IMG/VR virus record: IMGVR_UViG_2850761752_000005
Length of the DNA stretch: 33,816 nucleotides
Strand: one strand, 5' to 3'
Origin: a virus
Taxonomy: Duplodnaviria > Heunggongvirae > Uroviricota > Caudoviricetes
In this document: positions 4,748-33,441 of the stretch, piece by piece
How the letters are laid out: every line of letters starts with the position of its first letter
Numbering within the stretch: position 1 is the first letter of the stretch
Made by a program: the position numbers and the translations under genes
The notes under the pieces: generated by a model
What the model saw: the letters and a program-made list of their open reading frames with translations, nothing else
The model's database searches: none
Told to the model about the DNA's origin: nothing

Positions 4748-7700
4748 GCGTCGTATCCCCCCTGATCGCTGTAGTTACTCCTGGCTTTTGCCTTCAGCCT
4801 GCGTTCACGTTCATCAAGCTGGCGGGCCACCTCCCGCGCAATATCCTGCGCACTTTGTCCTGGCTGCGTTTGAATGATGATCTGCATCGGTGCCTCAATC
4901 CGTTGAACGGGCGGCACAGTGGCTGCACGACTCACCATCGCTTCACCGCCTTTCGCGGGAAGTGCCAAAGGGTGCAACGGTGGAAGCTCTGCTGGCGTAG
5001 CAGCAACACCCATCATTCCGGCAACAACGGCAGCCAGTGCAGCTGTATTTCTCCGGCTGGTCACATTTGCCGGGCCGTTAACAATTTCCGGCCCGTTTTC
5101 ACCGACGATGCCAAACTGCCCGCGCGGGATATACCCGCCGCTGTCATACATCCCCGCAAAGCCATATCCCCATGACGGAAAACCACCCGATGGCATCATC
5201 ACTTTACCGTCTGCATTCACCGTCGCAGGTTGCTGACGCGTCACGCTTTCCGGCAGTTTCGCCTTTGCGGCCTCTTTACTGACAATGCCAAGTTTCTCCA
5301 GCAACCAGGAAACGCCGGATTTCAGGGAGTCCAGCGGATGCATGACCATATTCAGCCCTTCCGCCAGAGCCTCCCCGAATCGTCGCCCCATTGCCGCTGC
5401 ACTCTGCAGTTCGGCAGAGGTCGACTTAACGGGCGTCAGCAGATCAGTAAACCAGCCCCACAGCGCCTGTACTTTGTCGCCAATCCACTGGAACACAGGC
5501 TTAAGCGGTTCGAACGCGGCACTGACAGGACCTGCCGCCGCTTTGAATCCTTCCACCACGCCACCGAGAAATGCGGTGATGGGCTGCCAGTATTTCCAGA
5601 CAACCAGCGCCACACCCGCCAGTGCAGTAACCACAAGACCTATCAGACTGAGCAGAGCACCTAACAGACCAGAGACGGCATACAGGGCAACGCGCAGCAT
5701 CGCCAGTGGACCGGATGCGAGCATACGCAGCACCGTGCCTGTGGCAGCCAGTCCGCCGCGTAGTACCGCCAGTGGATTCATAAACATCACAGCAACCGCA
5801 CGTAAACCGGATAATCCAGACCGCAAAAGTGCAACCGGCGCACCTGCTACAGTTTTCAGGACATTTCCCGTCAGTGATGCCGTGCGGCGCAAAGACGACA
5901 ACGGCGCAGTAAGTAAACCTGCAGCGTTGCCCGATGAAGCAAGCCCGCGTCGCAGCAGTGCCAGTGGTGCGCCAGCCAGCCAGGACAACGCGTTGCTGGT
6001 TCGGGTTACTGTTGCCGTAACGGAAGGTAACGTTTTGATACCCAGCACAGAGAATCCCAGACGGATGACTGCCAGCGGCCCCAGCACTGCAGCCAGCGCC
6101 ACCGCTAAGGTGCCGAGGCCCACGGTAACGGCAGCTACCACAGCGGCTACTTTCATCAGAGTGCCCGTCAGTTCCGGGTTAGCTTCCACCCAGCGACGCA
6201 ACGCCCCCGTGACGCTTTTCACCGTGTACAGAATATCCATCAGCGGCTGGCGCAGCGTTTCCCCCAGGCTGCTGAAGGTGTTCTGTGCTCCGGTTTTGAC
6301 CAGCAACCACTGAGCAGAAAGTGAATCCTTGTTGATGTCGGATTCTTTCTGCATGGAACCGAGCGCATCATTGCCCGCAGTCAGTTTTAACTGGCGCTGA
6401 AGTTCCGGCAGGTTGTTTGCCAGTTTCGCTGCGTCATCGCCAAACTCTTTACCAAACAACATGGTCATGGCAGACAGGCGCTTATCCTGTGGCAGCGCAT
6501 TCACCTTCTCCAGCACCCGCTGGATAGTTCCCATCGCATCCTTCGTCATCTGCTTTTCAATCACTTCTGGATTGAGTTTCAGCAGATTCATCCCTTCAAA
6601 GAAACTCTTGCTTTGCATGGTGGCAATGGACAATTCACGCACCATCGCGTTTGCTGCACTGGCTGCAACCTCAGGCGCAGCGCCGAGTGTCAGGAAGGTG
6701 GAACCCAGCGCCGCCGCTTTACGATAATCCAGACGGTCAGCCACACCGCCCAGGCGTTGCATGACATCAATGATGTCCGCCCCTTTCGACATGGCGTTAT
6801 CATCCAGATAGTTCAGCGCATCACCGAGCTGCTCAATATTGCGGGTAGGGATTTTGTAGAGCTGGGCGATTTTCCCCAGACTTTCTGACAGTTCATCCGC
6901 TGGCAGTTCAAAGGCTGTTGCCGCCTTTGCCGCCGTGCTGGCGAAGGCCAGCAGGTCACGTTTCTGGTCTTCCCAGCTGTCGTCAGGGTTTGCGACGTTC
7001 ATGCGCGCACCACCTTCAACCAGTGCGGCGAAGTCCACAGCACCGTTTTCCATCGGCAACTGTTCGCTGGCAGCCTTGATGGCACCCTGCATTTCGTAAA
7101 AACGCGCAGTGCGGTTGCCATTATCGTCACGCAGACCATTGACCTGCTTTGCCACACCTTTCATGGCATCTTCCATGCTGGTATAGCTTTTTACTGCCGC
7201 CATCACTGGTGCGCCCATTGCCAGCCCTGCAGCCGTGGTGGTGGCTCCGGCACCTGCAATACGATCCCTTACCTCAAGACGCCTGGCGTAAGCCCCCGGG
7301 CGGCGTGCATTTTTCGCTGTTGCTCCCCGACACGTCGTAACCTCGCTTCCTGCTCAGAAAGCTGCCTGTTATAACGCATCGTTTCACGGGTAATGCGGGC
7401 CGTCGCACTGGCGCCATCATTAGCTGAAATACCAGCACGATAAAGTTCTGCACGCACAAGCGCCGTCTGCTGCTGCAGCTTTTTCTGGCGTTCTTCTAGG
7501 CGCTGAACAGCCAGCCGTTGACGGCCCAGAGCAACAACCTGACGTTGCGAAGGCGGCCCCATCGCTCCCAGTTCCTGACTGAGCAAATTTGCACGCTGGC
7601 GGGCATAGTTCAGCCTGTCGCCTAATTTCTGATTTTCTGCCTGCAGCTTTCGGAAGCTGTCCAGACTGCTCCCGGCCTGATCAAGCTGCTTTATTGCATC

Positions 7701-14904: not shown

Positions 14905-14907
14905 AAT

Positions 14908-15638: not shown

Positions 15639-15670
15639 CCCGTGCCGCCCGTGCGCGGGGGCACGTTCTG

Positions 15671-16321
15671 TCAGCGGCTGTCATTGCGCAGTCTGCGCTC
15701 CAGCTGCTGTTTGTCTTTTTTCACGCCACAGCGGGGATCGAGCTGTAACGCATGGTTGAGATGATTAAGGGCGGAAGCCGGATTGCTTTCACTCAGGACC
15801 GCGCCAATCGCTTTATGCAGACGTGCCCGTGACTGGTCCGGCATATCCAGACCGTCTGTCAGCTCCAGCGTCTGCAGCAACAGATCGGCATCAAAGCCGG
15901 TGGCGGCAAGCATTGCGCTCTGCGCTGCATCTGCCATTTCCTCTGTCAGCACGGTCTGCACGTTGCGGTTGCCCAGCGGCATCACCCATCCATGACGCAG
16001 GGCATGACGCCCGATCTCCAGCGCCCCGGCATAATCTCCGGCATCAATGCGCCACAACATCACGTACATCAGCACGTCATCCTGTTGAGCGCCTCCGGCA
16101 GCCAGGACACCCTCCGCCCAGGCGGCGTACTTCGGCAGCAGCTCCACTTTGATTTCCGCTTTTTTGACCGTGGACTGAACGCCCTTGAGACGGCGGCGGT
16201 CTTCCGCCAGTTGCAGCAGCATCAGGTCATAGCCCGATGCGTGGCGAACACTGCCACCCTCACGGACGGCCTGTTCAGCCTGAACGCGCAGGCGATGCTG
16301 CCGTGCGGGACTCAGGCTCAT
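15671..16321 (-). CDS. M: terminase small (endonuclease) subunit gpM-like
   Basis: 216-aa ORF between N and L. Confidence 0.8.
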   Translation of the reverse strand: MSLSPARQHRLRVQAEQAVREGGSVRHASGYDLMLLQLAEDRRRLKGVQSTVKKAEIKVELLPKYAAWAEGVLAAGGAQQDDVLMYVMLWRIDAGDYAGALEIGRHALRHGWVMPLGNRNVQTVLTEEMADAAQSAMLAATGFDADLLLQTLELTDGLDMPDQSRARLHKAIGAVLSESNPASALNHLNHALQLDPRCGVKKDKQQLERRLRNDSR

Positions 16322-16324
16322 GGA

Positions 16325-17383
16325 TTACGCTCCGGTTTCGGCTGCGGCGGCGCTGAAATCACTAATCTGGATGTTTTCCACCAGTGCGGCGCAGCGGTAG
16401 TCCTCAACCACATAGGCTTCGTTAACGGATTCAAAGTTTTCAATCCGGTCACGTTTCGGGTTGTCGATAACTGAACGGCGGCGGGTGTCTTCCTGCCAGT
16501 AGATGGACAGGTTATCCAGACGGGTGATCAGCAGCGCATTCGGCGGGAAGAACGGCGCACGCACGGCCTGCAGGCCACCCATGCGTTTCTGACTGATGAT
16601 CATATCGGCAGCCAGTTTTTCACTGTTTTCCTGCTCTTTGTTGACCAGCGGGAAATACTTGTCAGACAGCAGTTCACGACCGCAAATCACCACCAGATCG
16701 TCATCGTCCTGGTAGACCACGTCGATAAGCTCATTGACGGCATCCATCACCACGGCGTCCAGGTTGGCATATTCGCCACCTTTCCCGACTTTCACTGCGC
16801 CCGGTGTGGTTTCACCGCCCGTGGTGGTGCTGCCCATGACGTGATCCGGTGCATCCTCACGGATTTTCTGCAGCCAGCCTTTATTCACATCCTGCAGCAG
16901 CGGGTTTTCGCTACGGTTGGAGGTTTTCGCACGCTTCACGCCATTAAAGCCGATCATGATGCGGTCCAGTGCCTGACGTTTCACGATGGCGTCACGGATA
17001 CGCACCTGAAAATCCTGAAACTTCGCCCACAGGTCCAGCTTCGCGTAGGTCAGCACCGTGTCAAAGTTGGTCTGCTCGCATTTATATTCCACATCGACCA
17101 TCAGCGTCGGATCGACAGGTTCACGCTCTTTCGCAGTGGTATCAGTGGTTCCGGCAATGGTGCTGCCAACTCCCAACCCCAGCAGCTGACCGGACTGCTC
17201 AGTCACTGGCGTGACGTTAATCAGAGTCAGGAAAGCGGCGGACTGCTGGATCTGGTCTTCCAGCGTCTGCTGCACGGACGGCTCTACGGTGAACTTGCTG
17301 GACAGTTCTTCAACTGCCACACCGTTCAGACGCGCCAGTTGCTGCAGGTAAGCGTTAAAAGCAAAGCGGGTATTCTTCTTCAT
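16325..17383 (-). CDS. N: major capsid protein gpN-like
   Basis: 352-aa ORF (P2 N is 357 aa). Confidence 0.85.
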   Translation of the reverse strand: MKKNTRFAFNAYLQQLARLNGVAVEELSSKFTVEPSVQQTLEDQIQQSAAFLTLINVTPVTEQSGQLLGLGVGSTIAGTTDTTAKEREPVDPTLMVDVEYKCEQTNFDTVLTYAKLDLWAKFQDFQVRIRDAIVKRQALDRIMIGFNGVKRAKTSNRSENPLLQDVNKGWLQKIREDAPDHVMGSTTTGGETTPGAVKVGKGGEYANLDAVVMDAVNELIDVVYQDDDDLVVICGRELLSDKYFPLVNKEQENSEKLAADMIISQKRMGGLQAVRAPFFPPNALLITRLDNLSIYWQEDTRRRSVIDNPKRDRIENFESVNEAYVVEDYRCAALVENIQISDFSAAAAETGA

Positions 17384-17399
17384 CAGGTTTTGTGCTCCA

Positions 17400-18233
17400 T
17401 CAGCAATTGGTCAGAGTGTCAGCGGGGGCGTTACCGCCTGTTGCACGCTGGCGGTAGTCCTGGCGGCTGTCTTCATGACTCAGCTTGTCCACCAGTTCGT
17501 TAAAGGCGGTTTGCTGTGCCTGCAGGGCAGTCTCCAGCTCAGACAGGCGTTCTTCCTGCTCAGACAGGGATTTTTCGGTGCGTGCGCTCAGGTTCTGCTG
17601 CTCAGTGGCGACCAGCTCCACGGCCTTATGCACATCAGAGAACCGGGCGTCATCGGACTGCTCTTTTTTGGTAAACAGCGCCGTGACGCGGGCAAACAGG
17701 GACGGTTTGTCGTCCTGGACTTCTTCCAGTTCGATCACCGTTTCCTCTGCGGCGGTAAAGAGATTGGCGGGATTCTGCTTGCGGTTTGCCAGCGGGTTAT
17801 GGGCTGCACTGGCGCTGAATGTCAGCATTTCAGTGCCCAGACTGGCAGGGTCATCAGTGGCAGCCAGGCCGACTAGGTAGGCTTTGCCCGTATCAGCGAA
17901 CTTCGGGCTGACTTCCATAAAGGTGAATAATTTCTGGCCTTTTTTCACCAGTTCCACCAGGGACTCCGTTGGCTCAACGTCAGCATACAGCGCCATCTTG
18001 CCTGCCAGCGGACCTTCCGTGATTTCTTCAGCAAACAGCGCCGTCACCTTGCCGTAGCGGTTAAAGGTGCTGTCCGGCAGATAAGACTTGATGTGCTCAA
18101 GGTTAATCAGCGCGGTATACACCGCCGGGTTATAGCTGGCTGCCATCTGTTCCAGCCATTCACGCTGGATTTCGCGTCCGTCGGTGGTGGCACCTTCCAC
18201 CCCGATGCGAAAACGCTTTGCTTTCACTGTCAT
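17400..18233 (-). CDS. O: capsid scaffold protein gpO-like
   Basis: 277-aa acidic, coiled-coil-rich ORF; first gene of the O operon, divergent from P. Confidence 0.85.
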   Translation of the reverse strand: MTVKAKRFRIGVEGATTDGREIQREWLEQMAASYNPAVYTALINLEHIKSYLPDSTFNRYGKVTALFAEEITEGPLAGKMALYADVEPTESLVELVKKGQKLFTFMEVSPKFADTGKAYLVGLAATDDPASLGTEMLTFSASAAHNPLANRKQNPANLFTAAEETVIELEEVQDDKPSLFARVTALFTKKEQSDDARFSDVHKAVELVATEQQNLSARTEKSLSEQEERLSELETALQAQQTAFNELVDKLSHEDSRQDYRQRATGGNAPADTLTNC

Positions 18234-18311
18234 GAGCCGTGCTCCGTTAGAAAAAACTTACTGGAGCCTTATGGTTGCGGTGATAGGGGCAGTGAAACAA
18301 TGCGCGGTATT

Positions 18312-18329
18312 TGTACCGACAACCACACA
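18312..18329. promoter_or_regulatory. Candidate Ogr-dependent late promoter element (TGT-N12-ACA) in the P/O divergent region
   Basis: TGTACCGACAACCACACA; centre is about 87 nt upstream of the O ATG and 56 nt upstream of the P ATG. Confidence 0.4.
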
Positions 18330-18375
18330 AACCGCAGGCGGGGAAAGCCTTCATTCAAGGCTGTAGGTTTGTGCC

Positions 18376-20142
18376 ATGAACACCACACTGACACCCGCAG
18401 ATCTCGATCCCCGTCGGCAGGCCATGCTGCTGTACTTTCAGGGATACCGCGTAGCCCGCATTGCTGAAATGCTGGGCGAGAAAGTTGCAACCGTTCACAG
18501 CTGGAAAAAACGCGACAAGTGGGGTGACTATGGGCCTCTGGATCAGATGCAGCTCACCACCGCCGCACGCTACTGCCAGCTCATCATGAAGGAGCACAAA
18601 GAAGGGAAAGATTTCAAAGAGATTGACCTGCTGGCGCGCCAGTCTGAGCGCCACGCGCGGATCGGCAAGTTTAACAATGGCGGCAACGAAGCCGACTTAA
18701 ACCCTAACGTCGCCAACCGCAACAAAGGCCCACGCCGTCAGCCTGAAAAGAATGTTTTCACCGATGACCAGATTGAGAAGCTGGAAAAAATTTTCCATTC
18801 CTCCATGTTCAACTACCAGCGCCACTGGTGGGAAGCCGGAAAAACCAACCGCATCCGCAACCTGCTGAAGTCACGCCAGATCGGCGCGACCTTCTATTTT
18901 GCCCGTGAAGCCCTGATTGACGCCCTGCTTACCGGACGTAACCAGATTTTCCTTTCTGCCAGTAAGGCACAGGCCCACGTCTTCAAACAGTACATCATCG
19001 ACTTTGCCAAAGAAGTGGAGGTGGAGCTGAAAGGCGATCCGATGGTGCTTCCCAACGGGGCCACACTGTATTTCCTCGGCACCAATGCCCGCACTGCCCA
19101 GAGTTATCACGGTAACCTGTATCTGGATGAATATTTCTGGATACCGAAATTTCAGGAGCTACGCAAAGTGGCTTCCGGTATGGCTATTCACAAGAAATGG
19201 CGGCAGACCTATTTTTCCACACCATCCAGTCTGACCCACAGTGCTTATCCGTTCTGGTCCGGTGCGCTGTTCAACCGTGGGCGCAACAAAGCTGACAAGG
19301 TGGACATCGACCTGTCCCACAGCAATCTGGCCCCCGGCCGGCTGTGCGCAGACGGGCAATACCGCCAGATAGTCACCGTGGAAGATGCGGTGCGCGGCGC
19401 CTGTAACCTGTTCGACCTTGACCAGTTGCGCATGGAGTACAGCCCTGACGAATACCAGAACCTGCTGATGTGCGAGTTCGTGGACGATCTCGCGTCCGTG
19501 TTCCCGCTCAGCGAATTGCAGGCGTGCATGGTGGACAGCTGGGAAGTCTGGACCGACTTTCATGCACTGGCCCTGCGCCCGTTTGGCTGGCGCGAAGTGT
19601 GGATCGGTTATGACCCGGCAAAAGGTACGCAGAACGGCGACAGCGCCGGATGCGTGGTGGTGGCACCGCCAGCCGTGCCAGGCGGTAAGTTCCGCATTCT
19701 TGAGCGTCACCAGTGGCGCGGAATGGACTTTCGCGCCCAGGCTGACGCCATCAAAAAACTGACTGAACAGTACAACGTGACCTATATCGGCATCGACTCA
19801 ACCGGCGTTGGTCACGGGGTTTACGAGAACGTGAAAGCGTTTTTTCCTGCCGTCCGGGAGTTTGTCTACAACCCCAACGTTAAAAACGCCCTGGTACTCA
19901 AGGCCTACGACATTATCAGCCACCGCCGTCTTGAGTTTGACGCCGGGCACACCGACATTGCGCAGTCATTCATGGCAATCCGTCGCGCCACCACCGCCAG
20001 CGGCAACCGCCCGACCTATGAAGCCAGCCGCAGCGAAGAAGCCAGCCATGCCGATCTGGCCTGGGCAACAATGCACGCACTGTTTAACGAACCGCTGCAG
20101 GGCGAGTCCGCCAATACCAGCAATATTGTGGAGATTTTTTGA
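18376..20142 (+). CDS. P: terminase large (ATPase) subunit gpP-like
   Basis: 588-aa ORF (P2 P is 590 aa); stop overlaps the Q start (ATGA). Confidence 0.9.
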   Translation: MNTTLTPADLDPRRQAMLLYFQGYRVARIAEMLGEKVATVHSWKKRDKWGDYGPLDQMQLTTAARYCQLIMKEHKEGKDFKEIDLLARQSERHARIGKFNNGGNEADLNPNVANRNKGPRRQPEKNVFTDDQIEKLEKIFHSSMFNYQRHWWEAGKTNRIRNLLKSRQIGATFYFAREALIDALLTGRNQIFLSASKAQAHVFKQYIIDFAKEVEVELKGDPMVLPNGATLYFLGTNARTAQSYHGNLYLDEYFWIPKFQELRKVASGMAIHKKWRQTYFSTPSSLTHSAYPFWSGALFNRGRNKADKVDIDLSHSNLAPGRLCADGQYRQIVTVEDAVRGACNLFDLDQLRMEYSPDEYQNLLMCEFVDDLASVFPLSELQACMVDSWEVWTDFHALALRPFGWREVWIGYDPAKGTQNGDSAGCVVVAPPAVPGGKFRILERHQWRGMDFRAQADAIKKLTEQYNVTYIGIDSTGVGHGVYENVKAFFPAVREFVYNPNVKNALVLKAYDIISHRRLEFDAGHTDIAQSFMAIRRATTASGNRPTYEASRSEEASHADLAWATMHALFNEPLQGESANTSNIVEIF

Positions 20143-21171
20143 TGGGAAAGAGTAAGAAGAACCGCGCTGCGGCGACGAAACAGACCCAGCATAAAAACCA
20201 GACTTCAGCCGAAGCATTCAGCTTCGGCGATCCCGTTCCGGTTCTGGACCGCCGTGAACTACTGGACTATGTGGAATGCGTACAGACAGATCGCTGGTAT
20301 GAGCCGCCAGTGAGTTTTGACGGACTGGCGCGCACCTTCCGCGCCGCCGTGCATCACAGTTCACCAATTGCGGTGAAATGCAACATTCTGATCAGTACCT
20401 ACATCCCTCACCCGCTGCTCAGCCAGCAGGCTTTTTCACGTTTTGTGCAGGATTATCTGGTATTTGGTAACGCTTACCTGGAGAAACGCACAAACCGGTT
20501 CGGAGAGGTCATCGCTCTTGAGCCTGCTCTGGCAAAATACACCCGACGCGGATTAGACCTGGATACCTACTGGTTTGTGCAATACGGCATGACCACGCAG
20601 CCGTATCAGTTCACGAAAGGAAGCATCTTTCATCTGATGGAACCGGACATCAACCAAGAGATCTACGGCCTGCCAGGTTACCTTTCTGCCATTCCGTCAG
20701 CCCTGCTCAACGAGTCCGCCACGCTGTTCCGCCGATAGTATTACATTAACGGCAGTCATGCAGGCTTCATCATGTACATGACCGATGCCGCGCAAAACCA
20801 GGAGGATGTGAACAACCTCCGCAATGCGATGAAAAGCGCCAAAGGACCAGGTAACTTCCGCAATCTGTTTATGTACTCGCCTAACGGCAAAAAGGACGGG
20901 CTTCAGATCATCCCGTTGTCAGAAGTCGCGGCGAAGGATGAGTTTCTGAACATCAAGAACGTGAGCCGGGATGACATGATGGCGGCGCATCGTGTGCCAC
21001 CGCAAATGATGGGGATTATGCCTAATAATGTCGGGGGTTTGGGGATGTGGAGAAGGCGAGCCTGGAGTTTGTACGTAACGAGTTAATACCGTTACAAAAA
21101 AGAATGATGGAAATAAATAAATTGGTAAGTGAGAACATTGTTAAATTTGATAGTTATAAACTAGCTACTTA
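20139..21171 (+). pseudogene. Q: portal protein gpQ-like, disrupted by an in-frame amber codon and a frameshift
   Basis: In-frame TAG at 20736..20738 with the same frame continuing to 21086; the final 40 or so codons (...DVEKASLEFVRNELIPLQ...) are in another frame, rejoined by adding one G to the G5 run at 21033..21037. Total span is about 344 codons, as in P2 Q. Confidence 0.75.
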
Positions 21172-21277
21172 ACGTAATCACTAAATGAGGTTCTTTAACA
21201 CAGCTAAAAAATTTATTAATAGCCAGCAGTTTTATGAATTTCTTCAGCGTGCAGATACACGCTGAAGATGCAAAAAA

Positions 21278-22159
21278 TCATATGAGACGACCGTCTGGAC
21301 TTCTGTTACCTAAATGTAATTCACAGAGTATCCACCTAATCACATCAGGTCGAATTAACCCAGCTACAAAAACCGAATTCCAATTATTTTTACCTTTATG
21401 TTTTTCATCCAACAGCAACAACTCGCGAGTCAACAACTCATATACATCGCTATAAGTAGAAAGACTCTTATTCAGTCCTCTAATAACAAGCTCAGGATAT
21501 AAGTAAAACGACTCCCATTGTTCAGACAAATACCCCTTAATATTATTCTTGATAACAACATTATCAAGATGATACTTAACATTGTTATATTCTGGTGACA
21601 TTGGGTCAATTATGATTTTTACATCAATTGTAGGTGTTCGCCCTAATTTAGAAAAATTAGCACATATTAATCTTTGTTTTAATATATTATCAAAATATGG
21701 ATGCAGCATCCGATGGCCTGCAGAATTAGCTATAGTAGTACTTTTGAAAGTATTACATTTGCAAGCAGGAACCAAATTCTTAGTGAATAAAGAAAATTCT
21801 GGATAGTTTTCCTTGGGTAAAACATGATCCAAAGTCCCGCTATGCATTGAACCACACATTGGACATAGAGAGTTAGAATTAGCTGCTCTTATATCATCAA
21901 TTATAGATAAACACTTTGCGGGATTGTTATAATAATATCTCAAAGCTTCAGCAATATTGTTACTCAATACGCCACAAGAATTGACATTAAGATACCCTTT
22001 ATTCTTTATGTACGATCTATATGCATTAAGTATAAATGTATCCTGTCCATTCAGAACAGAATGATGTTTTAATCTCTTATTTGCAGATAGTTTTTTAAAT
22101 GCAGAATAATCTTTAAAAACAGGTCTTTTTAATTTATTCATTTCAATTGCCCATTTCAT
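21278..22159 (-). CDS. HNH endonuclease-domain protein (cargo gene 2)
   Basis: 293-aa ORF in an AT-rich region; motif CPMCG...GTLDHVLP...NLVPACKCN (CxxC, DH, N, CxC); ATG overlaps the ATPase stop by 17 nt. Confidence 0.7.
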   Translation of the reverse strand: MKWAIEMNKLKRPVFKDYSAFKKLSANKRLKHHSVLNGQDTFILNAYRSYIKNKGYLNVNSCGVLSNNIAEALRYYYNNPAKCLSIIDDIRAANSNSLCPMCGSMHSGTLDHVLPKENYPEFSLFTKNLVPACKCNTFKSTTIANSAGHRMLHPYFDNILKQRLICANFSKLGRTPTIDVKIIIDPMSPEYNNVKYHLDNVVIKNNIKGYLSEQWESFYLYPELVIRGLNKSLSTYSDVYELLTRELLLLDEKHKGKNNWNSVFVAGLIRPDVIRWILCELHLGNRSPDGRLI

Positions 22160-23791
22160 TTCTCAACGCAGTTAATACATTAAGTGATAAGTCCTCGCTA
22201 TATTTAGATTCAACATCATCCCAAGACATATTCTTTGCAATTATATTGTTTTTTACTTTATTTAAAATTTGAGTTGGTTCACTCTCACCGAAAACAAAAT
22301 ATGAGATATTTCCTATATTCGCCCCAAAAGTACTCAATCTCGGTTTTTCGCTAACAATTACCCCATCATCTCGTCTTCTGAGTATTGTCACTTGCTCCTT
22401 AAAAACCTCCCGAACAAGATAAACCGAATGCGTTGCTATGATAGCTGAAGAGCCTGTCTTTCTAATAAATTATCAAGCAATGCCATAAATTTATTAATAA
22501 ATGAAGGATGGAGATGTGTTTCTGGCTCATCTATTAATAGAAGAGTCCCATTCTCAATATACAAACAGACTTGTACACAAAACTTAATAAACGATATTTC
22601 CCCACTACTCAAAGGGTAACATTTATTTTCAATAAGCCTCAAAGGCTCGCCAGAGAGAATAATTTCAGAATATAATGATAGTCTAGATTCTTCGCCTCGA
22701 GAATTAAGCTCATTTAATTTAACAAATGGTGAATTTTCACCGCCACATTTGATTACTAAATCGTTGTTACTATTTAGAACACTCAGTGCATCAACAAATA
22801 TATTCCACCTTTGATTATAGCCGATAGCGTCGTTACTCCTCGCTAGTTGCACTATTAAATCATTCAAGTTTAATTTGGATTTTGATTCACGATTTAAAGT
22901 CAATCTTTTGTACCATATCAATGATTTTATTCTTTTATCGGTTGGAAATGAACACTTACTTTCATTTGTTGGAGAAAAAGCAATGAGCCTACTAATTTGA
23001 ATTCGTTCTTCAATGCTCACACCGTTAGAATCAACTACAGCCACCAAATTATCCTTTCCTTTAATCGCAGCCAATGCGATTTCTCTAAGCGTTTGGCTTT
23101 TTCCTACACCATTCTCGCCTATAATTATGGAAATTCTTTTTGGTAAATCATGCTCGTGATCAAAATTAAAAACATAAGATACATCTTCTTCATTAACTTT
23201 ATTCGAATAGCTAATCTTGATGTGCTGTGATAAATTACCCAACTCCTCATATTGAATACCGGAAAGAACTGTTCCTGCATTTTTGAAAGTAAAATACGAC
23301 TCAGACTCTCTAATGAAAGATTTATTAAAGATATCAGAAGAGATTGCTTTTTTCCTCAAATTCTCTGCACTAGCGTCACTTTTCTTAGAAACAACATCAT
23401 TAATGAAATTTAATATATATTTGGATTCATTCACCCCAAAAAATCTTACTAGTCTTCGATAATTATTCATATCCTGAAGCATGACAAAATAATCATTAAA
23501 CCCCTCATCCTTTAAATTAGATTCTTCCTTTTTCTTCACTCGCCTTATCAGTTCTGCTTTTCCATTTCGTTCCTCCTCTGAATTCAAAAAACCAATATAA
23601 CCATTCAGTGAAATTATATCCTTACACTCTTTTTTATTAAAAATAGATATTTCGACTCTACTCAAATATCCAAAATCATTCCAATCGCTTCTTGATGGGA
23701 CTATTTTTATATAATTACCAGAATCAGATATCTGTTGATTATTTGTAATTAAAAAATATAAACTATAATTTTTATTTTTCTTGACTAACAT
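22143..23791 (-). CDS. OLD/ABC-type ATPase with an unrecognised N-terminal domain (cargo gene 1), apparent single-base frameshift
   Basis: Walker A GENGVGKS near residue 225, Walker B LLLIDEPETHLHP and H-loop IIATHS. Read as two ORFs (22436..23791 and 22143..22391); a 1-nt gain within about 22430..22470 gives one protein of about 549 aa. Sample block 22441..22500 has 16 G+C of 60. Confidence 0.7.
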
Positions 23792-23833
23792 TATTACCCT
23801 CTCACTTCATTAGTGATGATTTATTTTGGAATT

Positions 23834-23861
23834 ATTTTACACACTTATACCTAGCGCGCAA
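23834..23861 (-). promoter_or_regulatory. Candidate sigma70 promoter for the ATPase-HNH operon
   Basis: Minus strand TTGCGC, 16-bp spacer, TAAAAT, about 45 nt upstream of the ATPase ATG. Pattern match only. Confidence 0.25.
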
Positions 23862-23879
23862 TCGTATCCCCGCCACGCC
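23861..23879. other. Candidate cos site (cohesive-end region)
   Basis: Minus strand GGCGTGGCGGGGATACGAT; first 13 nt match the recalled P2/186 cohesive-end sequence GGCG(A/T)GGCGGGGA. Confidence 0.4.
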
Positions 23880-23927
23880 TGCCCGCTTTATGTAGAGGTT
23901 TTCATGCACCTGCATGATCTACGCAAA

Positions 23928-23948
23928 AGCCCGCCAGTTCTGGCGGGC
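23928..23948 (-). terminator. Putative terminator downstream of the tum/dinI-like cassette
   Basis: Inverted repeat GCCCGCCAG / CTGGCGGGC with a short loop, followed on the minus strand by TTTTG. Confidence 0.35.
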
Positions 23949-24083
23949 CTTAGCAAAAACGATCCTCAAACGATCATGCGATCTCATGCGGCATAGACAT
24001 GCACTACAGAGCTAACGCCTCGCAAGGGCTCGTTGTTCAACCTTGCTGACGCCAGAAGCTAGTTCAGACGCCAGCAACGTTTC

Positions 24084-24317
24084 TTAATGCAGCCAGCTGT
24101 CGTCTTCCCACACCTTCTGCATAATTTTCATCACTTGTTTTCTTTCTTCGTCCAGTTGCAATCCAGTAAGTTCCACACCGTTAGAGCTACCTTTGCGGAT
24201 ACGAATTACCGTTTTGGGATACAGAGGGCGCAGATTGCGGTAAAGCTCGGATTCAAGAGCGTCCAGGGTAGACTGGCTAATCTTCTGCTCTTTATCGATC
24301 ATTATTTCAATGCGCAT
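24084..24317 (-). CDS. DinI-family protein
   Basis: 77 aa from ATG at 24317, preceded by GAGGTGA; MRIEIMIDK...VMKIMQKVWEDDSWL resembles E. coli DinI. Confidence 0.75.
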   Translation of the reverse strand: MRIEIMIDKEQKISQSTLDALESELYRNLRPLYPKTVIRIRKGSSNGVELTGLQLDEERKQVMKIMQKVWEDDSWLH

Positions 24318-24327
24318 AAAAGTCACC

Positions 24328-24516
24328 TCAGCTGATGACATCCATTGAGCGGTTGTATTCGTGGGTTCTGATTTTTGCCATGAGTTCATCAGTCAATTCA
24401 GAAACCCACTGCAGAGCCAGCCCCTTCTCTTCATCACTACACTCACTAGCCGCTACAAGCTTAAGAAAAAAATCAATGCGCTGGAGCTTCAAAGACTCCA
24501 AAAAATAGTCCTGCAT
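24328..24516 (-). CDS. small SOS-regulated protein, candidate Tum-like antirepressor N-terminal module
   Basis: 62 aa from ATG at 24516, preceded by AGGAGG; LexA box 44 to 59 nt upstream; stop lies 10 nt before the DinI-like ATG. Confidence 0.55.
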   Translation of the reverse strand: MQDYFLESLKLQRIDFFLKLVAASECSDEEKGLALQWVSELTDELMAKIRTHEYNRSMDVIS

Positions 24517-24557
24517 CTTTCCTCCTATGACACCACACGCAATACTGTATGCATAAC

Positions 24558-24577
24558 CACTGTTTATATTTACAGTA
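24558..24577 (-). promoter_or_regulatory. LexA (SOS) box overlapping the cassette promoter
   Basis: Minus strand TACTGTAAATATAAACAGTG, a full CTGT-N8-ACAG match; TATACT -10-like hexamer overlaps its 5' edge. Confidence 0.7.
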
Positions 24578-24669
24578 TATAATAATCTTACTGATGTAAA
24601 ACGTTTTTTTACGTTCATCAGCCTGATATGCCTGGTATTATTAAGAGCACGAATTGTTAACCCGCGTAA

Positions 24670-27084
24670 TTAATACAGGTTCCGCCACTGATCATCTTCC
24701 TGCAAACGCTGGTTCCGATAGAAGATACGCAGGCCTGCTCCTGACGGAATACTGCCTCCGCGAAGGAGTAAATCGACCTCTTTCTCGCTGCCATCAAATC
24801 CTCTGGACTTCAGCTCATACACGAGCTGCAGTCGCTGATGGTCTGTAATTCGCTGTTTGTAGTCTTTACGCCGTTTCGGTTTCACCAGGCGTAACCTTGC
24901 TGCCAGTTCCCGGCGCTCTTTTTTGCTCATACTGTGCAGGTAATCGTGCAACTCCTTGTCATCCATGCTGGTAATGTCCGTTCTGGGGTTCCCATCAGCT
25001 GATTTATCTTTCTCCTGTTGGTTCAAATTTTCAGCAAGGAGACAGTTATTGCCACGAGTCCAAGGGGCGCAAGCGCCCTGGTCGGCTGCCGCCTCCTGAA
25101 CGTCAACGGCTTTACGAACCATTTTCCACTTCACTGCATGAGTGCAGATCTTGCCTTCTGCAATGGGTGACCAGATGCCATAAATACGAATACCGTGATC
25201 GCCATAGGCGGTCGGCTCTTCATTGATTTCATAAGCGGTTCTGATCAAGTGATATTTGCGAGGAACCAGCACGCCGCCCTGCCTCATAATGTAGGTGGCA
25301 AAACAGCCAGCATCAGCAGCAGCCAGGATGGCATCAAGGCGCGGGTTATCCAGTACCGGCGCACCTGCTTTTTTGTCACCCTGCTGCCTTGCCGCCTGAC
25401 CAGCCAACAACCGCAGTTCACGGTAAGCCTGACGCCCTGGAATACCAAAGAAGCGGAATTGCTGAACACGATGCAGAGACGCCCAGGGATTAACGTATTC
25501 AGCGTTATCACGCAGGGATTTACCCGTTTCCTTGCTGATCTCGCCAGCCAGACCACGCCCGTCAATGTTCTTACTGATGTATTTCGCGATGTAGCTTGTC
25601 GGCGTTCCTTTGCGCGGGTTTATCAGCTCAGATTTAAAGCGTGGACCAGTGTTATTACCCAGTTCCTCGCGGTCTTCACGGATGGCAAACTTACGCAACA
25701 ATGCAGTAATGGCGCGGCGGTCTTTTTTGCGCATAAAACACAACAGGTGCCAGTGAACTGTACCGTCATGATGCGGCTCAGCCACCCGCACGCCATACCA
25801 GCGCAACCCGGCTTTGTGCATCGCCTTACGAAATGCAGCAAACATGCCGACCAGATAATCGCTGCTTTGTCTTACCGTCGCATTTGTCCAGGTTGGGTTT
25901 GGTCTGCCGTTATTGAGCGTGGAATGGAAACGTGACGGACAGGTAATGGTGTAGAAAACGGCGCAGTCACCGCGCATTTCCGCGATAAGCTCCAGACCTT
26001 TAACACAGGCCATCATCTCATTGCGGCGGTGCGCCGGGTTGCTGCTGCTGGCGTTTACCACGTCTTCCATATCCAGCGTGTCGCCCTCTTCGTTCACCAG
26101 TTCATGAGAACGGAAAAACTCCAATGACTTGCGGCGCTGCTCACGTTTATGCATCACGGCTTCATAGCTGACATAGGGAGATGCTTTTTTGCTGACCAGG
26201 CAGACAGCACGCAACTGCTCTTCCCGCCATTCGCAACGCATTTTCCATAATTTCCGGTACCACCAGTCGGCGCACAACATACGCGCCAGCGAACCCGGAA
26301 TGAGTTCATAGGGCACGGGTTTACGGCGGTTTCTTTTCCGACGGAGTTGCTCAAACGCAGGCGGGATGACATCCAGACGCAGGGTTTCCGCTGCCACCTT
26401 TTCCCATGTCTTGCGGATTTCTTCTGGCTTAACGTCATCGGTGGCATACAAATCACCACAAGCTGCATCAAGGCACATGCTCATATGCGCAGCGACAAGG
26501 GTAGACAGGCGTTTCACCTGATCCTGACTCATTTCAGGCAGAATCAGCAGGCCGTCCAGCCCTACATGGCTTGCCATAAAACGAAAAGATGCAGATAGCT
26601 GGCTGTCGCGTACATGCTCCAGTCGTTCCAGACATGGCTTAATCGTCTCACGTAAATAGCGGGAATAAGCCTTTGGCCTGCCCAGGCTGCTGAAGTATTC
26701 AATACGTTGCATCAGCGGCTTGCTGATATGGGAAGGCTGGGCGTTGACGTCCGCCAGAATGACCATATCCGGATTAAAACGCTGCTGCTCATGCGCCAGC
26801 TTTGCCCGGCTAATGAGCTTATCCTGCTCCATTTCGTGCTGGACAGGATCACGTGATTCATAAAAAAAATAACGCTCCCAGACCTGATCACTCAGTGCCT
26901 CGCGGCGCAACTGTTCCTGCTCGTTATCGGCAGCGTACAGAGTGATCAGGTTTGAAAGCGCAGAAACCGGCGCAACTTCCGCCGGGTCCAGATAAGGGTT
27001 AATGGCCTTTTTCGGGCTGTTCCATGAGAACGCTGCGGCAGCCTCGTTAAAGCCGCAGCAGTTGTTCATATCGGCATGGCTCAT
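24670..27084 (-). CDS. A: replication initiation protein gpA-like (rolling-circle initiator)
   Basis: 804-aa ORF (P2 A is 761 aa); ATG overlaps the dam' stop. Confidence 0.85.
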
Positions 27085-27720
27085 GCACGTACTCCGTACA
27101 CGGCAGAACTATCCACGCCACGCGAATAATCAAATCCCACCCAGCAGCGCGGCCCGGAAACAGCAATGATTTCTGTTGCTGATTTACCCTCGCCAGCTGC
27201 CACACCGATGCTGCGTTTTACCTTGATATAGTGGTGAGTAAAATTGCGATACAGCGAACGGATCAGGGATGTGTCACTGTTAGAAACAATGACCGGATGT
27301 CCTTCTGATGACCGATGTTCAAGAACGGATGCTAGGTGATACTGGTCATCTTCAGTGAAACCATCAGTGTGATAGCCGGAAAACGTACCGTCATACGGTG
27401 GATCGCAATACACCACATCCCCCGCCTTCAACATCGCCAGCGTTTCATCAAAGCTGGCGCAGATAAACGTTGCTCGCTGGGCTTTTTCTGCAAATGCGCG
27501 AATTTCTTTTTCAGGGAAATACGGATTTTTATAATTGCCGTAGGGAATGTTGAAATGCCCGCTCTTGTTATAGCGACATAAACCACGGTAACCGTGACGA
27601 TTGAGATACAGGAAATATACCGCTTTCATGAAATCAGTAATTTCAGTTGAGTAATTAAACTCCTGCCTTATGTTGTAATAAGCCACCTCCCTGTTTGCGA
27701 TCTCAAATAAAACTCTGGCG
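27081..27720 (-). pseudogene. Dam-like N6-adenine DNA methyltransferase, 5'-truncated by IS911
   Basis: DPPY motif and a strong match to recalled E. coli Dam from about residue 75 onward; frame is open right up to the IS911 end at 27721; the N-terminal AdoMet-binding region is missing. Confidence 0.75.
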
Positions 27721-27728
27721 TGAAGTGG

Positions 27729-28897
<1,169 letters not shown>

Positions 28898-28969
28898 TGG
28901 AGCACCTGTGTTGTTCTGAGGTGAGCATATCACCTCTGTTCAGGTGGCCAAATTCAGTGTGCCACTTCA

Positions 28970-29146
28970 AAGCAGCCAGATTTCTGGTGCGGTTAATAAA
29001 TGAGGCTGAGCTGGGTTCAGCTTGTTCCGCAGAATCTGCACATTCATGCCTGCACGTTCTGCCAGTTGCACCAGATTGTGGCGCAGTGCAAATGCACGAC
29101 AGGCTTCATCAAAATGTGGATGTTTGGAAACTTGGTAATCAAACAT
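28970..29146 (-). pseudogene. cII: 186 CII-like protein, 3'-truncated by IS911
   Basis: [19 protein letters not shown]... resembles recalled 186 CII; the frame runs into the IS911 terminus and stops at the IS-encoded TGA. Confidence 0.6.
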
Positions 29147-29178
29147 GGTCAATGCCTCTGATGTATTTCAGAATCGAA

Positions 29179-29400
29179 CTAATTAAGGTTTAGATTGCAT
29201 TCTGAAAGCGCATCAACGGTCATTGCTGCTATGTTGATCATCACTTTTTCGCGTTTTTTATCTTTGCGCAGACGGTGACGGATAAGGCGTCCATCAGCCA
29301 ACATGTCATTGATGGTATCGATGGATAGCCCTGTCAGCTCGCTATAGCGTTCAATAGTCACATGAGGCGTGGTAAGAGTGATTGAAATGTTAGGTCTCAT
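29179..29400 (-). CDS. apl: 186 Apl-like excisionase / repressor
   Basis: 73-aa HTH ORF divergent from cI, upstream of cII. Confidence 0.65.
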
Positions 29401-29472
29401 GATGCAACATTCCTCGTTTAATGATGATTAATCAGGACGAATACGGATCGTTTGTATTTTGTGAACACCATA

Positions 29473-29501
29473 AACATATGATTGCACAGTGAAATCGTCA
29501 A
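29473..29501 (-). promoter_or_regulatory. Candidate lytic promoter pR driving apl-cII
   Basis: Minus strand TTGACG, 17-bp spacer, TATGTT in the cI/apl intergenic region. Pattern match only. Confidence 0.35.
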
Positions 29502-29525
29502 GATAAAAGTTCACTTGGAGTGACC

Positions 29526-30095
29526 ATGAATTTGGAGAAAGGCGGACGAGGCGCCATAGAGCGCATGGTAGAAGCTTATGGATTCAAGACTCGACAGGCG
29601 TTGTGCGATCATTTAGGAATCTCTAAAAGTACACTCGCCACACGCTACATGCGTGACTCATTCCCAGCAGAATGGGTAATCCAGTGCGCCCTTGAAACGG
29701 GCACCTCGCTTAATTGGCTCACAACCGGACATGGTTCAAAGCAAACTTCAGGTAATACAAATACTATGGAAGTTGCTAAATATGTATTATCTGATGGTGC
29801 CTTGCGTGAAGACGGTTTTTATATTTTTGATAAGGGATTTCTACCCTCTACGTTTAAAAAACCTTTTGTCATCACAGATAACAATTCTGAATTTATTTGT
29901 GATAAAGAATTTGATGACATACGTGATGGTAAATGGGTAATAAGTATTGATGGCGAAGTAACGATCCGTGACATTACTCGTTTACCCGGTGGAAGAATCT
30001 TCGTCGAGGGTGGAAACAGAGCCTTCGAATGTAAGATAGAAGACATTGAAATAATTGGTAAAATTATAAGTTTAACAGTTAAATATGTTAGATAA
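29526..30095 (+). CDS. cI: 186 CI-like immunity repressor
   Basis: 190 aa from ATG at 29526 after GGAG (the ORF track starts at a GTG at 29520); N-terminal HTH. Confidence 0.7.
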   Translation: MNLEKGGRGAIERMVEAYGFKTRQALCDHLGISKSTLATRYMRDSFPAEWVIQCALETGTSLNWLTTGHGSKQTSGNTNTMEVAKYVLSDGALREDGFYIFDKGFLPSTFKKPFVITDNNSEFICDKEFDDIRDGKWVISIDGEVTIRDITRLPGGRIFVEGGNRAFECKIEDIEIIGKIISLTVKYVR

Positions 30096-30110
30096 TACCG
30101 GGAGGAAACT

Positions 30111-30302
30111 ATGCTTGGTAAAGTATTTTTTGTGGTTTTATCATGCTCTTTGTTATTAAGCCCACTAACTACCTATGCTAAAAATTATCCTTGTTCTGGG
30201 AAAAAGGGAGGTGTCTCTCACTGTACCTCCGATGGAAAATTTGTTTGCAATGATGGAACTATTAGTAAATCCAAAAAAATCTGTACTAAAAACTCACGAT
30301 AA
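30111..30302 (+). CDS. small secreted Cys-rich protein of unknown function (candidate moron)
   Basis: 63-aa ORF with strong GGGAGG site; N-terminal signal peptide and four Cys in the mature part; 16 nt after the cI stop. Confidence 0.5.
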
Positions 30303-30311
30303 CTTTTGCTT
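30303..30311. repeat. 9-bp target-site duplication CTTTTGCTT of IS1 copy 2 (left)
   Basis: Identical 9-mer at 32393..32401. Confidence 0.85.
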
Positions 30312-30366
30312 GGTAATGCTGCCAACTTACTGATTTAGTGTATGATGGTGATTTTAAGGTGCTTGC

Positions 30367-30642
30367 GTGGCTTCCATTTCCATCAGATGTCCTTCCTGCT
30401 CCGCTACTGAAGGCGTGGTGCGTAACGGCAAAAGCACTGCCGGACATCAGCGCTATCTCTGCTCTCATTGCCGTAAAACATGGCAACTACAGTTCACTTA
30501 CACCGCCTCTCAGCCCGGTACGCACCAGAAAATCATTGATATGGCCATGAATGGCGTCGGATGTCGCGCCAGTGCACGCATTATGGGCGTTGGCCTCAAC
30601 ACGGTTTTACGTCACTTAAAAAACTCAGGCCGCAGTCGGTAA
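30367..30642 (+). CDS. insA: IS1 InsA
   Basis: Identical 91-aa protein to copy 1. Confidence 0.95.
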
Positions 30643-31064: not shown

Positions 31065-31130
31065 GTTGGAGTCATTTGAACCGCCCCGGGAATCCTGGAG
31101 ACTAAACTCCCTGAGAAAGAGGTAAACAGG

Positions 31131-32580: not shown

Positions 32581-33441
32581 ATGGCAGTACGAAAACTCAC
32601 CACTGGGAAATGGCTTTGCGAATGTTACCCCGCCGGACGAAGTGGGCGTCGTGTGCGTAAACAATTCGCCACCAAAGGCGAAGCACTGGCTTTTGAGCGC
32701 CACACGATGGAAGAAACCGAAGCAAAGCCCTGGCTGGGTGAATCAGTGGATCGTCGAACACTGAAAGACGTGGTTGAGCTATGGTTCAAACTACATGGTA
32801 AATCTCTGACAGCTGGGCAGCATGTCTATGACAAATTGCTGTTGATGGTTGACGCTCTGGGCAATCCTCTTGCAACCGATCTCACCTCTAAAATGTTTGC
32901 CCACTATCGAGATAAACGCCTGACAGGCGGGATCTACTTCAGCGAGAAATGGAAGAAAGGAGCAAGCCCGGTCACCATTAACCTGGAGCAAAGCTATCTA
33001 AGTAGTGTTTTTAGCGAACTATCCCGTCTGGGCGAATGGTCGTATCCGAACCCACTGGAGAACATGCGAAAATTCACCATCGCAGAAAAAGAGATGGCAT
33101 GGCTTACCCATGAGCAGATTGTTGAATTGCTGGCTGATTGCAAACGTCAGGACCCAATTCTGGCACTGGTAGTTAAGATATGCTTAAGCACAGGCGCACG
33201 CTAGCGTGAAGCCGTAAATCTTACCCGCTCACAGGTGACCAAATACCGAATTACCTTTGTCAGAACGAAGGGAAGAAAAACAGAAGCATCCCTATCAGTA
33301 AAGAGCTTTACGAAGAGATCATGGCGCTTGATGGGTTCAATTTCTTCACAGACTGCTATTTTCAATTTTTATCCGTGATGGAAAAAACGTCTATCGTGCT
33401 CCCTCGCGGTCAACTCACACACGTTCTGCGCCATACGTTTG
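32581..33441 (+). pseudogene. int: P2/186-type tyrosine integrase with amber codon, frameshift and 3' truncation by IS911
   Basis: MAVRKLTTGKW... resembles recalled P2 Int; TAG at 33202..33204 where ...STGARW... is expected; frame change near the A-run at 33271..33280; the HVLRHTF region runs straight into the IS911 end at 33442, so the catalytic Tyr region is lost. Confidence 0.7.

What the first reader, a model, noticed from the sequence alone, without database searches (positions are those of the whole stretch)
22430..22470. Single-base frameshift splits the cargo ATPase between Walker B and H-loop
The 451-aa frame ends ...ERQALQLS-stop, while the next frame reads ...SSAIIATHSVYLVREV... 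(the ABC H-loop). One added base, for example restoring CTAATC at 22438..22441, gives a continuous ...ALQLIIATHS... protein. The system is therefore either inactivated or the assembly has an indel error.
Basis: seen in the sequence. Interest (0 to 1): 0.5.

Follow-up and report, generated by a model that had tools for sequence, protein, structure and literature searches.

The report
Assembly error mimics ATPase frameshift
The apparent frameshift that splits a prophage-borne defence ATPase is almost certainly one base dropped from a short T-run by this particular genome assembly, because two other assemblies of the same Shigella boydii clone are otherwise identical and carry the gene intact.

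Summary
On the minus strand a 451-aa ORF (22436-23791) stops 7 codons after leaving the true frame. The next frame carries the H-loop (IIATHS) and the last 105 residues of the protein. The missing base lies in a T-run at 22459-22461 (T3 here, T4 elsewhere), not at 22438-22441 as proposed. The repaired protein reads ...LLDNLLEKTGSSAIIATHS... (549 aa).

The window comes from CP026731.1 (Shigella boydii ATCC 8700). Two independent assemblies of the same clone (UAUO01000003.1, CP068090.1) match it at all 19,148 aligned positions and share the same IS insertions. They differ only by four one-base homopolymer contractions in the window, one of which is this "frameshift". All 22 other assemblies examined have T4. 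The truncated product exists on one contig only. A fifth contraction (tape measure, 7293-7297) recurs almost only in the same accession series, which suggests a pipeline artefact.

The gene is therefore most likely intact. It is the ABC-type ATPase of a two-gene ATPase + HNH candidate defence system (PADLOC PDC-M01, Septu-like). The system sits in the known gpA-gpQ hotspot of a decayed P2-like prophage. Interest is low. The main value is a warning about homopolymer indels in this assembly.

The parts
22459..22461 (-). T3 run (A3 on the coding strand, spanning codons 444/445). This is where one base is missing relative to T4 in every other assembly, and it is the cause of the apparent frameshift.
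   Evidence: alignments; census: T4 in 22 other assemblies, T3 only in CP026731.1; exact coordinates.
22436..23791 (-). 451-aa ORF: residues 1-444 of the ATPase (Walker A, LSSGE signature, Walker B) plus 7 out-of-frame residues and a TAG.
   Evidence: identical prefix of 444 aa with the intact 549-aa protein; PDC-M01A, PtuA, AAA_21.
22143..22458 (-). Downstream frame encoding residues 445-549 of the ATPase (KTGSSAIIATHS... H-loop and C-terminal region), ending at TGA 22143-22145. There is no ATG/GTG/TTG between the upstream stop and the H-loop, so it cannot be made on its own.
21278..22141 (-). Partner gene: HNH-type nuclease (287 aa from the RefSeq start, one base after the ATPase stop; a 293-aa ORF if read from 22159). 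PADLOC PDC-M01B.
   Evidence: RefSeq 'HNH endonuclease' WP_005007304.1; PDC-M01B 1.2e-33.
21173..24669 (.). Cargo region of the P2-like prophage between portal gene Q (broken) and replication gene A. It is AT-rich (32.5% GC for 21173-23900, against 55% in the phage backbone) and corresponds to the known gpA-gpQ defence hotspot.
   Evidence: PMC9122126.
21033..21037 (+). G5 run in the already dead portal gene. It is G6 in both same-clone assemblies, so this is a second contraction of the same kind.
21230..21233 (.). Intergenic T4 run, T5 in every other assembly. Third contraction, private to this assembly.
33270..33272 (+). G3 run in the integrase remnant, G4 in all other assemblies. Fourth contraction.
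7293..7297 (-). C5 run that splits the tape-measure gene into 183 + 824 aa. It is C6 in all assemblies outside the accession series. Fifth contraction.

Best explanation
The split is a consensus error of this assembly (CP026731.1, Shigella boydii ATCC 8700). One T of a T4 run at 22459-22461 was under-called, as happened at several other short homopolymers in the same window. In the organism the gene is most likely an intact 549-aa ABC-type (AAA_21/AAA_15) ATPase. It sits immediately upstream of an HNH nuclease gene, one base apart, presumably co-transcribed and translationally coupled. Together they form a Septu-like two-gene candidate anti-phage system (PADLOC PDC-M01). The system is carried as cargo in the gpA-gpQ hotspot of a P2-like prophage that is otherwise a decayed remnant. 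By analogy with Septu (my own knowledge, not tested here), the ATPase would assemble with and restrain the HNH nuclease until infection is sensed, after which the nuclease cuts DNA. Shown: the sequence difference, its homopolymer context, its absence from same-clone and all other assemblies, and the family assignments. Inferred: that the cause is sequencing or assembly error rather than a stock-specific mutation, and the defence mechanism.
For: (1): the exact 451-aa product is on record on a single contig, CP026731.1, which searches identify as S. boydii ATCC 8700. (2): UAUO01000003.1 (L054) and CP068090.1 (L059) align to window 14673-33816 with 0 mismatches in 19,148 columns and share all IS insertions. 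The only differences are four 1-nt deletions in the window, each shortening a homopolymer (G6>G5, T5>T4, T4>T3, G4>G3). Both encode the intact 549-aa ATPase. One search adds a fifth such difference just outside the window, again with 0 substitutions in 12,111 nt. (3): among 14 assemblies over 11.4 kb, the window has 0 singleton substitutions and 2 singleton indels, both T-run contractions. No other assembly has a singleton 1-nt indel there. (4): T4 in 22 other assemblies, T3 only here. (5): the tape-measure C6>C5 contraction is carried by 9 shown assemblies of the same accession series (CP026731-CP026866). These belong to different prophage sub-lineages and carry many further split genes. All 7 assemblies outside the series are C6, which suggests a pipeline-specific artefact. 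(6): in every other locus with the same degraded prophage the ATPase is called at 549 aa. (7) Family identity.
Against: No reads were available, so the error is inferred from comparison. T3/T4 runs are short for typical long-read consensus errors. I could not confirm with the tools which strain names belong to GCA_900457095.1 and GCA_016726285.1. Calling them the same clone rests on 0 substitutions in 19 kb and identical IS insertions, compared with 6-20 substitutions to other S. boydii genomes. The sequencing platform of CP026731.1 was not established here. The portal G5 allele also occurs in a few unrelated assemblies, so at least that run could be naturally unstable. The look-up finds only carriers of the C5 product, so it cannot show how many assemblies of the series are C6.
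Confidence: 0.9

Rival explanations
1. A real, stock-private loss-of-function mutation. Replication slippage deleted one A:T pair in the culture that was sequenced for CP026731.1, truncating the ATPase before its H-loop and inactivating the defence system.
For: The sequence as deposited carries the lesion. Shigella genomes and this prophage do accumulate real pseudogenes. The portal nonsense codon at 20736-20738 is shared by more than 1,300 collection blocks. Single-base homopolymer deletions are also the commonest natural frameshift.
Against: Two same-clone assemblies lack it. It would have to arise together with at least three other one-base homopolymer deletions and no substitution in 19 kb. 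That is one indel per ~5 kb with zero base changes, which is unlike any natural mutation spectrum I know of. Two of the four differences lie in non-coding or already dead DNA, so selection cannot explain the pattern. The same kind of contraction recurs across the accession series.
Confidence: 0.07
2. Programmed recoding or phase variation. The gene is meant to be read through a ribosomal or transcriptional slip at the A-run, or it switches on and off by run-length changes.
For: The break is at a homopolymer. Some defence and IS genes use slippage.
Against: The run is only 3-4 bases, far below the lengths that support transcriptional slippage or phase variation. There is no X XXY YYZ heptamer between codon 444 and the TAG. 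All 22 other assemblies have the in-frame T4 allele and none has T5 or T3. A phase-variable tract would show a spread of lengths.
Confidence: 0.01
3. A natural two-ORF (split) architecture, in which the N-terminal ATPase part and a C-terminal H-loop protein are made separately.
For: Two ORFs are visible (451 aa and 82 aa).
Against: The downstream frame has no ATG/GTG/TTG before the H-loop. Its first start, GTG at 22391, lies after the H-loop. No orthologue shows two ORFs with independent starts; all are single 549-aa genes.
Confidence: 0.01

Closest known systems
Homopolymer under-call (consensus indel) errors in unpolished or long-read-only bacterial assemblies
   Same: Every difference from the same-clone assemblies is a one-base contraction of a 4-6 base homopolymer. 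There are no substitutions. Coding and non-coding sites are both affected. The same site recurs across assemblies of one accession series.
   Different: The platform and pipeline of CP026731.1 were not established here. Two of the affected runs are only 4 bases long, which is shorter than the usual problem runs.
PADLOC candidate system PDC-M01 (ATPase PDC-M01A + HNH PDC-M01B), which overlaps Septu calls in PADLOC/DefenseFinder comparisons (PMC11811056)
   Same: The intact ATPase's best hit is PDC-M01A (3.2e-55, near full length). The partner's best hit is PDC-M01B (1.2e-33). The genes are adjacent on the same strand, one base apart.
   Different: PDC-M01 is an unpublished candidate with no experimental proof of defence for this member. 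Nothing was tested here beyond sequence.
Septu (PtuA ATPase + PtuB HNH nuclease)
   Same: Two-gene ATPase + HNH architecture. There is a near full-length PtuA profile match (PDLC00282, 9.6e-32, residues 32-535). The ATPase has ABC-type motifs (Walker A, LSSGE, Walker B, H-loop). The partner has a Cys-rich HNH-type motif.
   Different: PDC-M01A profiles score much better than the PtuA profiles. No PtuB profile appears among the 25 best hits for the nuclease. No solved Septu structure is found by sequence search; only UvrA ABC modules are. Pfam finds no HNH domain in the partner.
P2 old/tin locus: the gpA-gpQ defence hotspot of P2-like phages (Rousset et al. 2022, PMC9122126)
   Same: Same position, between replication gene A and portal gene Q next to cos. 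AT-rich cargo that is swapped between related prophages. E. coli relatives carry the same pair with extra genes beside it.
   Different: The cargo is not old/tin. The host prophage here is a non-functional remnant.

Membership tests
Genuine pseudogene (frameshift present in the organism) | The lesion is present in the organism's DNA, i.e. reproduced in independent sequencing of the same strain or clone | tested here: not met
   UAUO01000003.1 and CP068090.1 have 0 substitutions in 19,148 nt against the window and identical IS insertions, and both carry T4 and an intact 549-aa ORF; the truncated product is on one contig only.
Assembly homopolymer indel artefact | Differences from same-clone assemblies are confined to one-base homopolymer length changes, without substitutions, irrespective of coding status | tested here: met
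   5 of 5 differences are one-base contractions of G6, T5, T4, G4 and C6 runs, with 0 substitutions. Two lie in intergenic or dead DNA; 0 singleton substitutions against 2 singleton indels.
Assembly homopolymer indel artefact | Read pile-up contradicts the consensus at the site | not testable with these tools
   No read data are accessible.
ABC-type / AAA_21 (PF13304) ATPase | Walker A, signature motif, Walker B and H-loop in order, and a Pfam match above the gathering score | tested here: met
   AAA_21 60.8 bits (cut-off 27) and AAA_15 35.3 bits (cut-off 32.1) for the intact protein; motifs at 225-232, 394-398, 417-424 and 451-456.
PADLOC PDC-M01 | Adjacent PDC-M01A ATPase and PDC-M01B nuclease genes | tested here: met
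   best hits 3.2e-55 (A) and 1.2e-33 (B); same strand, one base apart.
Septu | PtuA-family ATPase | tested here: met
   PtuA profile PDLC00282, 9.6e-32, covering residues 32-535 of 549. This is weaker than the PDC-M01A hits.
Septu | PtuB-family HNH nuclease partner | tested here: inconclusive
   all 25 listed hits are PDC-M01B and any PtuB hit lies below the list; no Pfam HNH hit. RefSeq names it an HNH endonuclease. A CxxC...DH...N...CxC motif is visible in the translation.
Septu | Demonstrated protection against phage | not testable with these tools
   Needs cloning and plaque assays.
P2 gpA-gpQ defence hotspot cargo | Located between replication gene A and portal gene Q of a P2-like phage, with variable content among relatives | tested here: met
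   (gene order; extra genes in L002/L003); PMC9122126.
Programmed frameshift / phase-variable tract | Slippery heptamer or long homopolymer at the shift site, and the out-of-frame arrangement conserved or length-variable among relatives | tested here: not met
   A3 run and no heptamer; all 22 other assemblies are in frame with the same length.

The most novel reading that the evidence does not exclude
The frameshift itself has no novel reading left. The most interesting reading the data allow concerns the locus. The P2-like prophage of the S. boydii-type lineage is clearly dead: a portal nonsense codon, loss of tail-fibre and baseplate genes, and IS insertions at the integrase and regulatory genes. 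Yet its ATPase + HNH cargo is intact in all 22 other assemblies examined. This could mean the defence pair has been domesticated and is kept by selection while the phage decays around it.
Probability: 0.3. Interest if true: 0.3.

Novelty: not a real feature. Interest (0 to 1): 0.07.

Why it matters
It matters mainly as quality control. Taken at face value, the type-strain genome of Shigella boydii would be scored as carrying an inactivated defence system, and also a broken tape measure. Any pseudogene count on this assembly would be inflated by roughly one spurious homopolymer indel per 5-7 kb in this region. Anyone using CP026731.1, and probably its sister assemblies CP0267xx-CP0268xx, for pseudogene, defence-system or phase-variation analyses should treat one-base homopolymer frameshifts as suspect. 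Where possible they should use CP068090.1 or polish with short reads. Biologically, the strain most likely has an intact Septu-like ATPase + HNH pair in the P2 gpA-gpQ hotspot, which is an ordinary finding.

Tried and rejected

(2) The idea that all indels against the UPEC relative are errors: partly rejected. The A7>A6 difference at 21206-21211 is shared by all close Shigella assemblies and is a real lineage polymorphism.

(3) Using the portal G5 allele as a strain marker. It occurs in several unrelated assemblies (AMGB01000027.1, SRR061722, SRR29762670, CP026823.1, CP026840.1), so it does not mark the clone. It is nevertheless G6 in both same-clone assemblies.

(4) Searching for substitutions private to the window, to use as clone markers. 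Only one was found (28357), inside a multi-copy IS, and it was not usable.

(5) Testing whether every assembly of the accession series shows private 1-nt indels in the 11.4 kb shared block. They do not; only the window does. The series effect shows up instead in the tail region.

(6) Sequence search of solved structures for the ATPase and the HNH protein. It found only UvrA ABC modules for the ATPase and nothing for the HNH, so it gives no structural anchor.

(7) Literature search for the accession numbers of the two same-clone assemblies. No paper names them. Only the equivalence NCTC 12985 = ATCC 8700 was found.

(8) Recoding, phase variation and split-gene readings: rejected (see rival explanations).

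(9) Not used: structure prediction, the large protein homology searches, and metagenome or GTDB scans. The question was settled by same-clone comparison.

Full report
**Observation**

Window 20900-23300 and its ORF list show a 451-aa ORF on the minus strand (22436-23791). It ends ...LLDNLLERQALQLS-TAG. The neighbouring frame reads FIRKTGSSAIIATHSVYLVREV... through to a TGA at 22143-22145.

The 451-aa part holds Walker A (GENGVGKS, 225-232), an ABC-signature-like LSSGE (394-398) and Walker B (LLLIDEPE, 417-424). The H-loop (IIATHS) is in the downstream frame.

The downstream frame has no ATG/GTG/TTG before the H-loop. Its first start is a GTG at 22391. As written, then, the sequence would give a truncated ATPase without an H-loop.

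**Context**

The window is a P2-like prophage inserted next to ybjL. Its genes are:
- gpD, gpU, tape measure, tube and sheath;
- an invertase region;
- lysis genes, capsid and scaffold (17400-18233);
- terminase (18376-20142);
- portal gene Q (from 20139, broken);
- an AT-rich cargo (32.5% GC against about 55% in the backbone);
- a DinI-like gene, replication gene A (24670-27084), and IS elements.

The cargo is the split ATPase followed, one base after its stop, by an HNH-type nuclease gene. The position between gpA and gpQ is the documented defence hotspot of P2-like phages, where P2 itself carries old and tin (PMC9122126).

**Orthologues**

Three complete E. coli genomes carry the same cargo at 99.4-99.7% identity. 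All have a single 549-aa 'AAA family ATPase', a 287-aa 'HNH endonuclease' and an intact 343-aa portal.

Alignment shows that the window lacks one T of a T4 run at 22459-22461. The intact protein reads ...NLLEKTGSSAIIATHS....

Over 27.9 kb aligned to the closest E. coli prophage there are 46 substitutions and 6 indels. Every indel is a one-base shortening of a homopolymer in the window.

**Provenance**

An exact look-up of the 451-aa product finds one contig in the whole collection: CP026731.1 of GCA_002946735.1. Two papers identify that record as Shigella boydii ATCC 8700.

The HNH product and the N-terminal portal fragment, which ends at a TAG at 20736-20738, are each on record in more than 1,300 collection blocks. 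These include S. boydii Sb227 (CP000036.1). In all the other loci shown, the ATPase is called at 549 aa.

So the prophage is an old, widely shared remnant with real lesions:
- the portal nonsense codon;
- IS1 replacing the tail-fibre and baseplate genes at about 11638-12406;
- IS insertions at 27721-28969 and 30311-32393.

The ATPase lesion, by contrast, is unique to one assembly.

**Real mutation or error?**

In a 14-assembly alignment of 11.4 kb, the window has no singleton substitution but two singleton indels: T5>T4 at 21230-21233 and T4>T3 at 22459-22461. No other assembly has a singleton one-base indel there.

The decisive comparison came from look-ups through the integrase fragment and gpA. 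UAUO01000003.1 (GCA_900457095.1) and CP068090.1 (GCA_016726285.1; chromosome 4,412,414 bp against 4,414,429 bp) align to window 14673-33816 with 0 mismatches in 19,148 columns. They share every IS insertion. They differ only by four one-base deletions in the window:
- G6>G5 at 21033-21037;
- T5>T4 at 21230-21233;
- T4>T3 at 22459-22461;
- G4>G3 at 33270-33272.

A fifth difference, C6>C5 in an IS, lies just beyond the window, again with no substitutions.

Other S. boydii genomes differ from the window by 6-20 substitutions over the same stretch. The two identical assemblies therefore represent the same clone. ATCC 8700 and NCTC 12985 are the same strain (PMC9022532), but I could not confirm strain names for these two accessions with the tools. 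Both encode the intact 549-aa ATPase.

Across all loci fetched, 22 other assemblies have T4 and only CP026731.1 has T3.

**A pipeline signature**

The left part of the window differs from its closest relative by 1 substitution and 1 indel in 12.4 kb. The indel is C6>C5 at 7293-7297, which splits the tape measure.

The resulting 183-aa product is carried by 15 contigs. The nine NCBI chromosomes shown all belong to the accession series CP026731-CP026866. They fall in different prophage sub-lineages and show many further split genes (tube, sheath, gpD, resolvase, YbjM). The only other carrier shown is a Logan contig that is itself full of frameshifts. All seven assemblies outside the series that cover the site are C6.

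One caveat applies. This look-up can only find carriers of the C5 product, so it does not show what fraction of the series is affected. It does show that the contraction follows the sequencing project rather than the phylogeny.

**Conclusion on the finding**

Four to five one-base homopolymer contractions with no substitution, found in coding, dead and intergenic DNA alike and absent from two same-clone assemblies, is the pattern of consensus under-calling. It is not the pattern of mutation. I put about 0.9 on an assembly artefact and about 0.07 on a real stock-specific mutation.

Recoding or phase variation is negligible. The run is A3/A4 with no slippery heptamer, and all relatives have the same in-frame length. 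A split-gene architecture is also negligible, because there is no start codon before the H-loop and no orthologue with two ORFs.

**What the gene is**

The intact protein matches Pfam AAA_21 and AAA_15 above their thresholds. In PADLOC it best matches PDC-M01A (3.2e-55) and, more weakly but at nearly full length, PtuA of Septu (9.6e-32). The partner matches PDC-M01B (1.2e-33).

PDC-M01 is an unpublished PADLOC candidate system that overlaps Septu calls (PMC11811056). No solved structure is close by sequence: the ATPase finds only UvrA ABC modules and the HNH protein finds nothing.

By analogy with Septu (my own knowledge, not tested), the ATPase would hold the HNH nuclease in check until infection. 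Membership of Septu proper is only partly tested, because the nuclease side is inconclusive.

**Novelty and interest**

The frameshift is not a real biological feature. The underlying system is an ordinary member of a known kind at a known hotspot, so interest is low.

One residual point is mildly interesting. The defence pair is intact in all the other assemblies of a prophage that is otherwise clearly dead, which would fit domestication. The divergence is too low to test selection here.

Noticed in passing
window 7293-7297 (minus-strand tape-measure gene, 4744-7820): A C5 run (C6 elsewhere) splits the 1025-aa tape measure into 183 + 824 aa. The same contraction is found almost only in assemblies of the accession series CP026731-CP026866, across different prophage sub-lineages. 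It is probably the same kind of consensus error as the ATPase frameshift.
   Followed up: yes
window 21033-21037, 21230-21233, 33270-33272: Three further one-base homopolymer contractions (G6>G5 in the portal remnant, T5>T4 intergenic, G4>G3 in the integrase remnant) that are absent from both same-clone assemblies. The portal G5 allele also appears in a few unrelated assemblies (AMGB01000027.1, SRR061722, SRR29762670, CP026823.1, CP026840.1), so that run may be error-prone or naturally unstable.
   Followed up: yes
window 20736-20738: A TAG nonsense codon truncates portal protein gpQ at 198 aa. Unlike the indels, this is a substitution shared by more than 1,300 collection blocks, including S. 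boydii Sb227. It is a real, old pseudogenisation of the prophage.
   Followed up: partly
window 11638-12406, 27721-28969, 30311-32393: The prophage is a remnant. An IS1 copy replaces about 5.5 kb of tail-fibre and baseplate genes (H, I, J, W, V). An IS3-family element sits between the dam-like gene and the truncated cII-like gene. IS1 plus another IS3-family element interrupt the integrase region. The same insertions occur in the same-clone assemblies, so these lesions are real.
   Followed up: partly
window 21173-24669 and loci L006-L059: The prophage has decayed, yet the ATPase + HNH cargo is intact in all 22 other assemblies examined. This could be retention by selection (domesticated defence). 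Divergence is too low to test that here.
   Followed up: partly
L027 (AMGB01000027.1), equivalent to window 22244-22249: This draft assembly has its own one-base contraction of a T6 run inside the same ATPase gene, giving a 516-aa call. The Logan contig SRR061722_295 carries the same SNPs but lacks the contraction. This is another assembly-specific homopolymer indel in the same AT-rich gene.
   Followed up: partly
window 21206-21211: An A6 run that is A7 in the E. coli prophages and in one Shigella sub-lineage. All the closest Shigella assemblies, including the same-clone ones, share A6. This is a genuine lineage polymorphism, not an error, and it serves as a useful internal control.
   Followed up: yes
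L002/L003 7026-8795 (E. coli NZ_CP148579.1, NZ_CP148374.1): In these E. coli relatives the hotspot holds two extra hypothetical genes (217 and 288 aa) between the ATPase and the DinI-like gene. This illustrates cargo turnover at the gpA-gpQ hotspot.
   Followed up: no
L040 13109-15421 and L047 (ERR126952), just right of the window: CP026731.1 and the read-based Logan assembly ERR126952 share shortened ybjJ (375 aa against 402) and ybjH (92 aa against 94) alleles. Because an independent read-based assembly has them too, these chromosomal differences look real rather than artefactual.
   Followed up: partly
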